The notes beneath the pieces are model-generated. The model had not been told where the DNA came from and ran no database searches. It saw nothing but the letters and a program-made list of their open reading frames with translations. The position numbers were made by a program, and so were the translations under genes. DNA of 62,597 nt, the filler included, from Octopus bimaculoides (taxonomy: Eukaryota): NCBI RefSeq assembly GCF_001194135.2. It is 5 parts of 4 records of this genome, joined end to end, with 100 filler letters (N's around TTAATTAATTAA, not from the genome) between each part and the next. Parts side by side here need not be neighbours in the genome. Positions count along the whole stretch, not along the records: positions 1 to 25,091 come from NC_068983.1; positions 25,192 to 35,934 come from NC_068986.1; positions 36,035 to 46,553 come from NC_068983.1; positions 46,654 to 56,454 come from NC_069003.1; 1 more part is not named here. The stretch is one strand, 5' to 3'. Of the stretch, positions 8,707-55,770 are shown one piece after another (position 1 is the stretch's first letter; every line of letters starts with the position of its first letter).

Positions 8707-11700
8707 AAATAATTTTTTCATGGTTTCTATAGCCAGAAGCCCAGAAGGACATATCAATCACTTAACAGTGTGTTTTGGGGGCACCAGCACAACAGAGGTT
8801 ATCATGCCCTCAGTGAGACCTAACACTACTCTATTTTGTCTCTGATCATTTAACAATTAAATGCCAAAGCTATATATATATTAAATGTTTGTCAAGGAAC
8901 CATGTTCAGGACAGGAATTGTACAATAATTATATAAATGAGCAAATTATTTGTAATTTTTGCTAATATTTCCATAGTTCTTGAAGATGTTAATTCATTTA
9001 ATTATTACTGCTCATAATTTGAACCTTTAACATTTAACTCATTGTCAACCCAGTTCTTCAAACCTAGATCTCTACTAATTACAGAATTAATAAACCTTGT
9101 GATATTTTCATTAATATTTCTGATTGGAAAAAGAAAAAAACATAAGACAAAAATAATGTTCATTAAATCTTCTGCCAAGAAAATTCTGCATTGCGTGTTA
9201 TATGACGTATTTCTTAGAAGAAATGACAATGTTTTGTATTACTTTTACTGCGATGCTGTAATTATTCATTTCCATTTTACCATTTTTACAAAAGTCACTC
9301 TAGCTACTCTCTGTTCTGTGCTGCGATGAAATTTAATTAAGGAATGTCAAAAAATTTTGTTTTGTTAATGGAATGTAATTGTTCTATCTCTGATGAAAAC
9401 ATAATTGAATACCTCAGCTTAATTTAGAGATGATTAACTGGATGGAATCATAATGCTAGAGCAAAAATACCAGTGTGTATAACATTTATATTGTCTCTAC
9501 ATATCTGGAATGACATTAGACAAAATATTTTGTCACAAAGAAATTTCTAAAAGAGACTGATGTGTTAAAAAACACAGGCTGTGGCTCAGAACACCAGTGG
9601 ATTGTCTGACAGTTTCAATCTGATTTGGTCTCATCAGTGATAAATATACTGGACATTCTGAGCCAAGCCAAAAATGTGTGTTCTGAAATAGAAATTGATA
9701 AATAAAGCATTTACTAATTTGTGAGCAAGCAAACCAGGCTAGAACGTGCAGAGTATTGTTCACTTAGGAGACCAAATTAGGTCATAGCACCATCTCTAAC
9801 ATCTTGTTGAGGACACAATAACCGCACTTGCGCTGGTGCCATCATAAAATGTGTCCAAAATAAATATTGTTAGGAAAGCATCCAGCTGCAGAAACCATGC
9901 CTCAGATTGGAGACCTTGTCAAAATACTTGCAACAGAGTGGACATAACAAAAGTCACACAAGGGCCAGGAGCCAGAGGATTTAATCCAAGGTAACAGATG
10001 AAGTCTGCATATTACAGCACGAAAATTATCCTTGATATGTTCTGAGATGCACTGAGGTTTATAGAGAGTTATCTCCCTTCCTGGACATTGTTGACAGTGC
10101 ATGACAAGAACTGGGGAAAGATATAAATGGTGGTCTCCTGGAATGTGAAGAAGGAATCACTACCATGAGGTTCCTCACGGTTCATCAGAACTCAGATATT
10201 GACTACATAATGTTCATTGTGGTATTCCTTCTTTTACGGAAGATATTACCCGAATAGTAGTCTAGTAGGTCATTACTTGTTGATGTGAATCCACTCCTAC
10301 CGGCTAAGAAGACAGTCCACTTTGCTAGTTTTGAAATATACTTATGAAATAATAAATAAAATTTCTAATTACTTATTTTTTCAATCCTTCTATATTTATT
10401 GTTGACATGTTAGAAAATCCAGCAATGTGCCCCCCCCCTCCCGCCATGGCAATAAACCTGCTCTGTTCTGGCCCCTTCTCACATACTTTACTCTCTCATC
10501 TCCCAGCACAAAACTGTTCCCTCACCCCCACCTTGGGGTTCATAATCTTGCAAGCTACATGACAACCTCACTAGTGTAAAAAAAACACCTGGTGCATGCC
10601 GTAAATTGGTTGACATTAGAAAGGGCATTCGACCCTGAAACCCCTGCCAATGAAAGCCCTGGAGCATGACGCAGTCCTTGGACCTGTCAGATCCTGTCAA
10701 ACCATCAAAGCTTTGCCAGCATGGGAATGAGAGCATTTAATGATGATAATGATCCACTTATTTCTTAGTTTATGGTCGGTGGTCCAATAAGGACGGGAAT
10801 TTCAAGAGGCCCACCTGCAGTCACTAAGCTCACCCCTCCCCCATCCAACCCCCATCCATCTGGGCTACTTTCAAGGACTGAGATAATGATTTTTAAGAGC
10901 AACTTGCAATTTGTAGTTTCCTTCGTTCCGTCACAAATACAATCCAAGACCTAGATTTCTGTCAAGCATCAAACTCCAAGAACCACTCCTTCACTCTCAC
11001 AATACACTCATCTACCATTTCCTCTAGATTGAATAACACCTGATCATCATCATCATCATCATCATCATCATCATCATCATCATCATCATCATCATTTAAC
11101 GTCCGTTTCCCATGCTGGCTAGTTTGACAGGAGTTGGCAAGGCTGGAGAGCTGCACCAGGTTCCATTGTCTGTTTTGGCATGGTTTCGACAGCTGGATGC
11201 CCTTCCTAATATGCCAACCACTCTGAGAGTGTACAGGATGCATTTTATATGGTGCTGGCATGGGTGATTTTTTGTGTGGCACCAGTATGGAGGCCTTTTA
11301 CATGGTGCCATCGCAGGGGTTTTTACATGGCACCAACATGAGTGCTTTTTTACATGTCACCAGCACAGATCAAGTGGCTTTAATTCTTTACTCATCGGAC
11401 ACGTTTGGTTGGTGCTTTTTACGTGCCACCAGCATGAGAGCCAGTCTGGAGTACTGGCATCAGCCACATTTGGATGGTGCTTTTTACGTGCCACTGGTAT
11501 GGGAGTCAGTCAAGTGGACCTATATGTGTGTGTGTGAAGGCACATGGCTTAGTGGTTAGGGTGTTACATTCACGATTATGTATGTATGTATGTAGGTAGG
11601 TAGGTAGGTAGGTAGGTAGGTAGGTAGGTAGGTAGATAGGTGAGCAGACAGGTAAGCAGGCACACGGTATCCATTTACCAATTTCACCCAAAAGGTTTTG

Positions 11701-12607
11701 GTCAGCCTGGGGCTATAGCAGAATAATCTTGCCCAAGGTGCCACACAGTGGGACTGAACCTAAAACTTATGTGGTGGCAAAGTGAGCTGCTTAACCACAC
11801 AGCCATGCCTACAGCTATAAAACATGGGATTATAGTCAAAACACTTTATATAAAACAATGGATTAGTTTCAGGATTTATATATAGGAAGTATTGGATCAG
11901 CTTCAGATTATTTATTTCTTAGAATATTGGATCTGCTTAAGAATATATTCTGCAGATTATTTGATTAGATTCAGAATATTTTCTAGAGAACAATGGTTTC
12001 AATTCAGAACATCTTACATAGAACAATATAATAGATAATAATTGACTTGCTATTTGCAATCGTTGTTGTTGTTGTTCTTCTTCTTCTTTGTCTTCTTCAT
12101 GTTAATGTAAAATATTTCTATTTTACTCTCTCTCTCTCTCTCTCTCTCTTTGTTCTTGATTGATTTTGCTAAATTAAGAATAGAATTTGATACCTAATAA
12201 CAACAGCAACAACAACAACGACAACAACAACAACAGCAACAATAATAATAATCGTAATAACAATAATAATAACAACAATAATAATAAATTAGCTATCAAA
12301 TAATAAGAATACTATCATTAAATAGTTTTAAAAAATGTAATGAGATTGATATTCTAATTAGAATCATTAATCTAGCTAATAAGTTTAGTCTGTCAGAATT
12401 GAAGGACAAATGTAAATAAAAATGAAATTTTCAGTTTGTTTTATTTATTTATTTATTTATTATAGAAAGAATATTTTAAATGGTAATTGTCTGGTTAGCA
12501 AGACTTTGAAAAAAAAAACAAACAGTTGAAACAAAAACAATATAAAAACATAAAAGTTTCATGTTGCATATAATGTGAAAATAAACCAATCAAATGATAT
12601 ATATATA

Positions 12608-13229
12608 TGTAGCGAACTCTAGTGAACTTCCTCTCCCTATTATATATACACACACATATGAGGATAGCAGGTAACAGCTAACCTTTGGGCACTGTTTTGG
12701 ACCCTGTTGAGTCTACCACTCTGATTGGTTGGTATTGTCACAATTTGTCTCTTACTCTATCACACGTCAATATGCAACCCAACCAATCACAGCCTCCAAA
12801 TGAATCACATGAGACAGTCTGTCCTAAACTGCACTTGAGCCTACTTTTAGCTATAAAAACGCACCTCCTCCTAGTCTTGGGGTCTGTTGGTTCCACACCT
12901 TCTAAGGTCTAACCGCAGAACACATTACAGCAACCTCCATCTTCGTTGCCATCATGTCTCTCTCCAACGTCGGCAACAACATCTACACAACACCGACAAC
13001 ACTGCACTGGTTCTAACATATTGCTGTTCTTGAGCTTTCCTCACCAGGGTTAACAGCTAACATACAGCCCACGTAGATGTATGTAAATATATTAATAAAT
13101 GTCCATCAAACACATCCATTTATCATTCAGCTTGTGTATATATACGTGTGGCCAGCATTAAAGACATTTAAAGTTACCACCTTGTTCCATGTATTTCTTT
13201 ATACCTTGTTCCTGTCAAATAATATTACA
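12608..13229 (+). mobile_element. solo LTR-like segment
   Basis: TGTAGC start, CCAATCA, TATAAAA, AATAAA, and a CA end at either about 13166 or 13229. No clear TSD. Confidence 0.45.
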
Positions 13230-13488
13230 GCCTTCTGAGTAGAGTCACATAGATGGCTCAACAACCTATCCATATATATACTGATTGGAAAAAAAATTAA
13301 ATAAAGCGTCTTGCTCAAGGATGCATTGCACCGTCGGGAATTGAACTCGTAACTGAAAAGTCATCAGCCAAATGCCTTAACCACTAAGCTATGTACCTTC
13401 GCATGTATGAGTAGATGTAAACATGTAGCTATAGAATTCAGCTAATGCTGTGTGTATATAAACGGATGTAAATACCTTGTCTATATAT

Positions 13489-54420: not shown

Positions 54421-55000
54421 AATCTCCCACTCCACAGCAGTGGCCTTATTTTTCTTTATGTTCTCTGCCATGATAAAAATGTCCACATAAAAGAAGGAGA
54501 AAGGAAATACAACAGTTCAGAAAGAATAAATAAAATATAAAGTTCCAGGCAGAATAACAAATTTTCAGGCCACAACGGTACTCCGGCCCGATTTGATCCC
54601 GGCTCCGCTGCAGTCGTCACTTTGGTGGTAAAAATTAAATCCTTTGCGTATCCTGCCGCTTTCCTAAAAGACACTGAACACGTCCTCACGCATCACGTCT
54701 GTCCTTACGTTCTGAGTTCAAATTCTACCAAAGCCGACTCTGCCTTTTCATCTTTTCGGGTTGGTGAATTAAGTGCCAGTCGAGTACTAGGGTCGATGAA
54801 ATCGACCAGCACCTCTCCCAGAATTTCAGGCCTTGTGCCTATAGTAGAAAGGATTAGGAAAGTGTTGTGGAAGAATTCTGACCAACCCCACGTGACCAAA
54901 AGGGGACTGGCGCATTACAATAAAATAAAGAAACTGCGTGAACTGTCGGCAGTTGACAGCACTGATCGTTCGTATCGGATTACTGTGTTAGTTTAATATC

Positions 55001-55230
55001 TATTTCGTTATTGCCCACAAGGGGCTAAACATAGAAGGAACAAACAAGAACAGACGAACGGATTAAGTCGATTACATCGACCCCAGTGCGTAACTGGTAC
55101 TTAATTTATCGATCCCGAAAGGATGAAAGGCAAAGTCGACCTCGGCGGAATTTGAACTCAGAACGTAACGGCAGACGAAATACCGCTAAGCATTTCGCCC
55201 GACGTGCTAACCACTCTGCCAGCTCGCCGC
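55001..55230 (-). mobile_element. young full-length Nin/Deu-domain-type SINE with 17-18 bp TSD
   Basis: CTGTGTTAGTTTAATATC at 54983-55000 and 55231-55248. Other copies at about 760-900, 14310-14530, 15130-15300, 43430-43530, 49090-49262, 54670-54860 and 60090-60290. Confidence 0.9.
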
Positions 55231-55619
55231 CTGTGTTAGTTTAATATCGTACCTACGTTTGCGTGAACATATTAATTCTGCGAAAGGTTATTCGAGATAA
55301 ACATATGCAAATATTTATGTGGGTAATACCATTCCTACACCCTTGTGCACACCCCAAAATCGTCATAACGTTATTAGCGACGAGATATTCAAACGCCGAA
55401 GTGGAGGCGCAATGGCCCAGTGGTTAGGGCAGCGGACTCGCGGTCANNNNNNNNNNNNNNNNNNNNNNNNNNNNNNNNNNNNNNNNNNNNNNNNNNNNNN
55501 NNNNNNNNNNNNNNNNNNNNNNNNNNNNNNNNNNNNNNNNNNNNNNTATTATTATTATTCAGGAAACTGCCTGGAATTGAACTTGGAATCATTGGAACTT
55601 GGAATAAGAAGCCCGCGCT

Positions 55620-55770
55620 CTCAACCACCACGCCATATGCCTGATGAAGGCTGGAGGGTATATCAGTCGAAACGTTGTGTTAACAACAAACAAGATTAGG
55701 ACAAATATCCGTCAAATGTAAATAATGTAAATAATGTACATAATTCCTCATCTCTTAAACATAGAACTGT
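55620..55770 (+). mobile_element. Penelope-like terminal fragment with minimal hammerhead motif (55641-55676)
   Basis: CTGATGA-A-GGCTG..CAGTC-GAAACGTT; homologous to 14930-15065. Confidence 0.7.

What the first reader, a model, noticed from the sequence alone, without database searches (positions are those of the whole stretch)
9604..55676. Dense, multi-family collection of hammerhead-ribozyme motifs across the window
Seen: about 13 CUGANGA-like cores followed by a hairpin, at about 9.63k(-), 10.18k(-), 15.03k(-), 25.00k(-), 26.34k(-), 32.97k(-), 34.17k(-), 34.27k(+), 42.08k(-), 42.32k(+), 46.21k(-), 47.48k(+) and 55.64k(+). They have unrelated stem II sequences and different palindromes after GAA (ACGT, ACAGCTGT, AATCGATT, ACATGT). 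Established: Penelope-like elements carry minimal hammerheads whose palindromic stem III lets them cleave as dimers. Inferred: several distinct Penelope/retrozyme-like lineages seeded this genome at roughly one motif per 5 kb, so intronic RNA may self-cleave in cis or in trans. I do not know whether these octopus families are already catalogued.
Basis: partly seen in the sequence, partly recalled or inferred. Interest (0 to 1): 0.72.

Follow-up and report, generated by a model that had tools for sequence, protein, structure and literature searches.

The report
Jumping-gene hammerhead remnants in octopus-like genome

Summary
Partly confirmed; mostly known biology. Of 13 sites, 9 are copies of six dispersed type I hammerhead (HHR) families and 4 are not. 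Only 3 of the 9 are complete here; family majorities restore the full fold. Families A, B and E are pseudo-LTR ends of Penelope-like elements (PLEs): one locus has HHR-A, an 855-aa RT frame, then HHR-A. C and G are ~300-nt head-to-tail retrozyme-like units; D is an unlinked ~230-nt repeat. One motif per 5 kb holds only for this five-stretch pack. A 516-kb genome sample gives one complete motif per 57 kb (~35,000 genome-wide). No same-family, same-strand pair shares a stretch, and the catalytic G12 decays at CpG rates, so a host intronic cleavage system is unsupported; intron location was not tested. B's majority core is also U4C. The scan noted PLE HHRs, ~340-nt retrozymes and U4C cores before on other DNA.

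The parts
1..228 (-). Complete extended type I HHR with C3 at 133, core CCGAAGA (U4C), palindrome AUCCGGAU, AUA site; cut predicted after 101
   Evidence: fold z=-5.1 with long stem I; RNA reads
9464..9744 (-). Family G: old ~300-330-nt retrozyme-like unit with a decayed canonical-type HHR at 9637 (stems I and II broken in this copy)
   Evidence: 33 matches at 70-85% apart from itself; alignment; same-strand tandems in 7 of 25 loci
9741..9798 (+).
   Evidence: nhmmer E=7e-9
10140..10188 (-). Not a hammerhead: private CUGAUGA in an old unrelated repeat, hairpin but no GAAA
14893..15074 (-). Family A pLTR end with a complete minimal HHR at 15034 (ACGU, GUU site)
24895..25062 (-). Family D short repeat; minimal HHR at 25006 with G12 changed to A (CpG decay); no ORF link in 30 loci
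26290..26348 (-). Single-copy partial look-alike: core, weak stem II, 7-bp stem III, no stem I; unassigned
32877..32999 (-). Family B (diverged subfamily) pLTR end; HHR at 32979 with CUGAUGA and one mismatch in stem I
34130..34310 (.). Two chance cores (34175-, 34270+), no stem II or no GAAA, no other genomic match over the motifs
41981..42232 (-). Family B copy, left arm of a head-to-head inverted pair; core CCAAUGA at 42088 (G5 lost)
42228..42450 (+). Family B copy, right arm; core CCAAUGA at 42321; family majority core is CCGAUGA (U4C)
46149..46239 (-). Family C, piece of a ~305-nt retrozyme-like unit; HHR at 46216 with intact core and damaged stem I
47410..47593 (+). Family E pLTR end; HHR at 47478 with long stem II; U4C here is not the family state (27 of 29 other copies have U4)
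55640..55769 (+). Family A copy truncated at the core (55641); its 5' stem I strand is flanking DNA pairing by two wobbles

Best explanation
Nine of the 13 motifs, plus two missed ones, are inserted ends of seven dispersed repeat families that each carry a type I hammerhead fold, likely left by Penelope-like retrotransposition and now mostly decaying, while four are likely chance cores. Shown: family membership, ORF linkage of A, B and E, tandem units of C, G and H, inverted pairs, broken cores. Inferred: insertions start at the 3' end and are usually 5'-truncated, so the HHR near that end is the part most often left. In the source elements the ribozyme would cut multimeric RNA into unit lengths as a strand-swapped dimer through the palindromic stem III, possibly with help from the element's protein. 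C, G, H and D likely borrow PLE enzymes. Lone copies in host transcripts would rarely cut.
For: First-look candidates: A 1774, B 3034, C 791, D 2999, E 1761, H 1333; G 33. Family majorities restore the full HHR where the window copy is broken, with different stems in each family. L342 holds HHR-A, an 855-aa frame (RVT_1 E=1.2e-10) and HHR-A on one strand. HHR-A lies 3' of the C-terminal ORF piece on the same strand in 12 of 14 loci. HHR-E lies 3' of RT/GIY-YIG remnants on the same strand in 7 of 30 loci, inverted in 1 more. HHR-B lies 5' of a decayed ORF 37% identical to E's RT in 1 of 30 loci. Most copies end ~140-250 nt after the HHR and vary at the 5' end. Divergent inverted pairs: A 16/30, B 13/30, E 7/30; same-strand tandems: C 12/58, G 7/25. 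These layouts match PMC4209133, PMC8557442 and PMC7229834. Core CpG sites decay at 12% (21/174; flank CpG 23%), including G12.
Against: Non-CpG core positions differ less than flanks among copies: 2.4% vs 5.8%, p=2e-9. After removing subfamily-polymorphic and CpG-like columns this falls to 2.3% vs 3.2%, p=0.07, with 35 differences against 50 expected, so weak selection on some copies is not excluded. D has no ORF or tandem link of its own. Pfam GIY-YIG support is weak (E=0.0025 for E, none for L342 or B). No read ends pile up at H's predicted cut site. The active dimer is the computed optimum only for H among six copies. No cleavage was tested.
Confidence: 0.88

Rival explanations
1. Same origin, but the HHR fold mainly serves as a structural or protein-binding signal in the element RNA and cutting is slow or dispensable, which would explain why U4C families spread.
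For: In the anole Poseidon element, HHR mutants do not affect insertion in vitro, cleavage needs protein, and no RNA-seq ends map to the cut site (PMC11167929 passages). H and B spread with U4C, a change that lowers activity in vitro (PMC3088659). Depth is continuous across H's site.
Against: In H reads the only core positions among the 40 rows shown that vary are N7 and H17, the two free ones. All seven families keep NUH and a self-pairing stem III. A viroid U4C variant stays infectious.
Confidence: 0.2
2. One reading: dense HHRs make intronic RNA self-cleave in cis or trans and are kept for that.
For: The window is ~4-fold richer in complete motifs than the sample (4/59 kb vs 9/516 kb, p=0.04, post hoc). 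Residual core conservation. About 35,000 complete motifs genome-wide could meet in trans.
Against: 6 of 9 copies are broken; neighbours are inverted; stem I strands differ between families; G12 CpG decay; compensatory changes within families are 0-1 in A-E, and 9 of 10 in G are C-G/T-A type swaps that double CpG decay explains. No exon was identified near the sites.
Confidence: 0.06
3. The motifs are chance matches in AT-rich repeat DNA.
For: Bare cores are not enriched; this holds for 10188, 34175, 34270 and probably 26348.
Against: Complete motifs 4 vs 0.02 in shuffles; nine sites belong to families whose majority sequence is a full HHR.
Confidence: 0.01

Closest known systems
Minimal type I hammerheads in pLTRs of metazoan Penelope-like elements (Cervera and de la Pena 2014, PMC4209133; parts 1-2 of 4 read, supplement passages)
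   Same: A and D fit the published consensus, with a bulged base after A9, G10.1-C11.1 and GAAA-CGU-U as in the Lottia rows. Thousands of mostly solo copies in several families, and inverted pairs 100-700 bp apart.
   Different: No octopus rows in the supplement text searched (one file not searchable). B has a majority U4C core and an A-G mismatch closing stem II; E has a ~46-nt insert in stem II.
Metazoan non-LTR retrozymes (PMC7229834, section 14 and passages; bioRxiv 10.64898/2026.07.22.740005, part 1 of 5 and passages)
   Same: C, G and H are non-coding ~300-345-nt head-to-tail units with 4-5-bp stem II, 6-nt loop 2 and extended stem I; mussel units are 350-390 bp.
   Different: H has a fixed U4C core and also shows PLE-type inverted pairs and a ~60-nt tail. 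Circles and cleavage are not shown.
Penelope/Poseidon clade, e.g. anole PAc (PMC11167929, passages; PMC8557442, passages)
   Same: Family A: pLTR-ORF-pLTR, RT then C-terminal endonuclease-like motif with no Cys-rich linker, HHR overlapping the start of the frame.
   Different: Clade placement is by domain layout only; no tree was built. B has a Cys-rich linker and resembles Nematis (motif recalled, not tested).
Natural U4C hammerhead of a viroid (as cited in Perreault 2011, PMC3088659; section 8 and passages)
   Same: Same core change.
   Different: There a rare variant in an RNA pathogen; here the standing state of high-copy genomic families.

Membership tests
Type I hammerhead ribozyme | Core CUGANGA / GAAA / NUH with three helices | tested here: met
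   Family majorities of A, C, D, E and G; window copies 15034 and 55641 complete
Type I hammerhead ribozyme | Invariant U4 | tested here: not met
   H (all 36 identical copies) and B (27 of 29 with C4) carry C4; a known tolerated natural variant
Type I hammerhead ribozyme | Match to an Rfam hammerhead model | tested here: not met
   0 hits at gathering score; none at E<=10 over 1-240; none among the 150 of 217 rows shown
Type I hammerhead ribozyme | Self-cleavage at NUH | not testable with these tools
   No read-end pile-up in two fragmented RNA-seq runs; not discriminating
PLE minimal HHR | Palindromic stem III allowing dimers | tested here: met
   ACGU, ACAGCUGU, AAUCGAUU, ACAUGUGU, AUCCGGAU; for H the active dimer equals the cofold optimum, -32.5 kcal/mol
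EN+ Penelope-like element (A, B, E) | HHR-bearing repeats flanking an RT ORF | tested here: met
   A: L342, both sides. E: 3' side in 7 of 30 loci. B: 5' side in 1 of 30
EN+ Penelope-like element (A, B, E) | C-terminal GIY-YIG endonuclease | tested here: inconclusive
   Pfam E=0.0025, below cut-off, for E; no Pfam hit for A or B; motif seen by eye (recalled pattern)
EN+ Penelope-like element (A, B, E) | 5' truncation, inverted 5' copy, microsatellite targets | tested here: met
EN+ Penelope-like element | RT groups with PLE clades in a tree | not tested
   No reference set fetched
Non-LTR retrozyme (C, G, H) | Non-coding head-to-tail units of ~150-400 nt, one type I HHR each | tested here: met
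   C 12/58, G 7/25 tandems; H 344-nt junction in genomic copies and in 67 and 50 RNA reads
Non-LTR retrozyme (C, G, H) | Accumulates as circular RNA | tested here: inconclusive
   The junction also exists in DNA, so junction reads do not show circles
PLE or retrozyme (D) | ORF link or tandem unit | tested here: not met
   None in 30 loci; the one same-strand neighbour is a sister family

The most novel reading that the evidence does not exclude
Family H is a currently spreading cephalopod retrozyme whose hammerhead works with a fixed U4C core as an obligate dimer, yields 344-nt circles, and is edited A-to-I by the host. It would show that a 'forbidden' core letter is a recurring, tuned-down setting of PLE-type ribozymes (also B, an H sister in L288 and L071) that standard CUGANGA searches miss, and would give a direct case of editing in retrozyme RNA.
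Probability: 0.4. Interest if true: 0.5.

Novelty: new member of a known kind. Interest (0 to 1): 0.3.

Why it matters
The main finding extends a known pattern to this genome and sizes it: about 35,000 complete motifs (16,000-67,000) in many families, invisible to Rfam. The young U4C family H is a ready test of an open question, whether PLE-type hammerheads must cut for the element to spread, and of whether host editing acts on retrozyme RNA, which the mussel study raised without testing.

Tried and rejected
Rfam: no hammerhead hit. Coupling of U4C to a non-G10.1 base: suggested by B, H and L071, rejected because L289 has U4C with G10.1-C11.1, and U4 occurs with A10.1 in L238 and L293. C-to-U repair of U4C in RNA: no row at 1559; all four C>T places of X24 are elsewhere, one of five in X23 is not shown. 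Junction reads as proof of circles: rejected, the junction is genomic. ORF link for C: none. ORF link for H: only an unrelated upstream frame in L222. ORF link for D: none. 10188 as a permuted hammerhead: the family lacks the core. Exon search by Pfam on 7 window frames: nothing; intron location and gene strand remain open. Sequencing-run search: no RNA holder on record among indexed runs, no evidence either way. Not held: Lunse 2017 and Martick and Scott 2006. Lunse 2017 describes PLE hammerhead variants by its title and may already list U4C. The supplement of PMC7229834 could not be read and may name cephalopod retrozymes. Paper searches for octopus or cephalopod PLE hammerheads and retrozymes, U4C cores and retrozyme editing found no catalogue; the squid genome paper lists 235 Hammerhead_1 hits.
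Full report
Observation. The window is five joined stretches. The four that hold sites map to C3:5.26 Mb, C6:116.9 Mb, C3:11.39 Mb and C23:8.02 Mb of G000, a 2.34-Gb assembly. Ten of the 13 sites have exact CUGANGA; 42088(-) and 42321(+) read CCAAUGA and 47478(+) reads CCGAAGA. Bare cores are at chance level (37 vs 27.8 +/- 5.5). Complete type I motifs are not: 4 in the window against 0.02 in 150 shuffles. 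Rfam finds no hammerhead.

Family assignment. I searched G000 with ten stretches covering 11 of the 13 sites, 133(-) and the upstream part of C; 32979 and 55641 were assigned by homology to B and A. Candidates at first look: A 1774, B 3034, C 791, D 2999, E 1761, H 1333; about 40 were scored each and the best 30 taken as loci, the window's own copy included. G has 33 matches, of which 25 were taken. In each family the majority is a full hammerhead even where the window copy is broken. D's copy has lost G12, the B pair has lost G5, C and 32979 have damaged stem I, and G has broken stems I and II. This is not circular, because families were defined by homology first. Four sites fail. 10188 sits in an old repeat (38 matches; 12 aligned), and 0 of the 11 other copies has the core. 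26348 is single copy without stem I. 34175 and 34270 lack stem II or GAAA, and the other 39 matches of that query cover only its first ~44 bases, a different repeat. Profiles find 11 family-derived loci in the window, including the inverted G partner at 9741-9798.

What the families are. A, B and E are pseudo-LTR ends of Penelope-like elements. L342 holds HHR-A, an 855-aa frame with RVT_1 (E=1.2e-10) and a second HHR-A on the same strand 2.6 kb on. HHR-A follows the C-terminal ORF piece in 12 of 14 loci. HHR-E follows RT/GIY-YIG remnants in 7 of 30 loci. HHR-B precedes a decayed ORF related to E's in 1 of 30. Pfam support for the endonuclease is weak. Most copies end ~140-250 nt after the motif and vary at the 5' end. 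Head-to-head inverted pairs occur in A 16/30, B 13/30 and E 7/30 loci, the B pair at 42 kb among them. C and G form same-strand tandems of about 300 nt (12/58 and 7/25) and showed no ORF link. They have a 6-nt loop 2 and an extended stem I, the retrozyme type. D is a ~230-nt repeat with a near-fixed 5' end and no link found.

Family H. 36 of 40 scored matches are identical over 151 nt. The unit is 344 nt, non-coding, joined head to tail, with inverted pairs in 5 of 30 loci and a ~60-nt tail on some arms. Its core is CCGAAGA (U4C). In two raw RNA-seq runs of one study (about 6% of each read), 692 and 619 reads were laid, and 67 and 50 cross the unit junction. The junction is also genomic, so circles are not shown. 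No read ends pile up at the predicted cut. Among 40 of 53 difference rows shown, the only core positions are N7 and H17. Of 16 A>G rows, 13 are under 0.05% in the contigs of run X15, against 2 of 24 other rows (p=4e-6); A>G places outnumber T>C 19 to 5. This suggests A-to-I editing of sense transcripts, but X15 is of unrecorded kind and from another sample. B also has C4 in 27 of 29 copies, and further U4C motifs appear in L071, L288 and L289.

Density. Sixty evenly placed 10-kb stretches (516,437 non-N bases) give 9 complete motifs: 5 CUGANGA, 1 CCGANGA, 3 UUGANAA. The descriptor there was slightly looser than, and one hit depends on that. This is one per 57 kb, about 35,000 genome-wide (16,000-67,000). 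With 21 profiles the sample has 23 remnants, one per 22 kb as a lower bound, against 11 in 59 kb here; that comparison favours the window because 7 profiles came from it. The window is about 4-fold rich (p=0.04, chosen after the fact).

Selection on inserted copies. Core CpG sites, mainly G12 and B's C4-G5, differ in 21 of 174 cells; flank CpG in 117 of 512. Non-CpG core sites are better kept than flanks (40/1653 vs 400/6873). After subfamily-polymorphic and CpG-like columns are dropped the gap is 35/1543 vs 172/5436, p=0.07. Compensatory pairs within families number 0, 0, 1, 0, 1 in A-E and 10 in G, 9 of them the type double CpG decay makes. Selection therefore acted mainly on source elements, seen as different stems with kept pairing across families; weak selection on some copies is not excluded.

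Mechanism. From known chemistry (recalled; described), a minimal hammerhead with a palindromic stem III cuts as a strand-swapped dimer. That needs two same-family, same-sense copies. No stretch of the window has such a pair: inverted pairs put one copy antisense, and A and D share ACGU but not stem I. The motifs would work in tandem precursor RNA of the source elements or between two transcripts. For H the active dimer is the computed optimum; for five other copies it is not. In the anole element cleavage needs protein and is not needed for insertion in vitro, so a slow or dispensable role is a real rival. Whether the sites are intronic is untested; seven window frames had no Pfam match.

Comparison and verdict. 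Thousands of variable minimal hammerheads per genome, solo or in inverted pairs, molluscs included, are in PMC4209133 (parts 1-2 of 4 and supplement passages). Retrozymes of 350-390 bp are in mussel (PMC7229834, section 14 and passages), and a 2026 preprint derives them from PLEs (part 1 of 5 and passages). Inverted pLTRs and tails are in PMC8557442 (passages and supplement rows). U4C is known from a viroid (PMC3088659, section 8 and passages). PMC6765202, PMC11167929, PMC11300833 and PMC6962438 were seen as passages only. Searches found no octopus catalogue and no U4C retrozyme, but Lunse 2017 and one supplement could not be read. Earlier scan notes report the same kinds in this genome and U4C cores elsewhere; none matched H by sequence. 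Verdict: new members of known kinds, interest 0.3; family H is the part worth a bench test.

Noticed in passing
   Followed up: yes
L108 upstream of the D copy; L245:671-712, L252:4388-4422, L254:3606-3638: An abundant D-like sister family reads CUGUUGA (A6U) or similar before stem II and GAAACGU; 3 copies in 516 kb. Possibly another natural core variant.
   Followed up: no
L243, L284, L289, L076, L082: Several families with the U3-A8 core (UUGANAA), 3 of 9 complete motifs in the random sample.
   Followed up: no
L342:2552-5116(-): An open 855-aa PLE frame runs through the HHR of the 5' repeat with no early ATG; the start may depend on an intron or a non-AUG codon.
   Followed up: no
window 26290-26348(-): Single-copy near-hammerhead with a 7-bp stem III but no stem I; could be a relic of a rare family.
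   Followed up: partly
window 133, 9637, 10188, 15034, 25006: The main HHR-derived copies of stretch 1 (133, 9637, 15034, 25006) all lie on the minus strand; gene strand unknown, numbers small.
   Followed up: no
window 4284-4407, 7248-7480, 20148-20329: Related 66-73-bp tandem repeat units recur three times in stretch 1.
   Followed up: no
window 43527-43976(-): 150-aa open frame of ordinary composition, a possible exon; no Pfam match.
   Followed up: partly
window ~9940-10330: Old ~390-nt dispersed repeat (38 matches at 70-84%) of undetermined type.
   Followed up: partly
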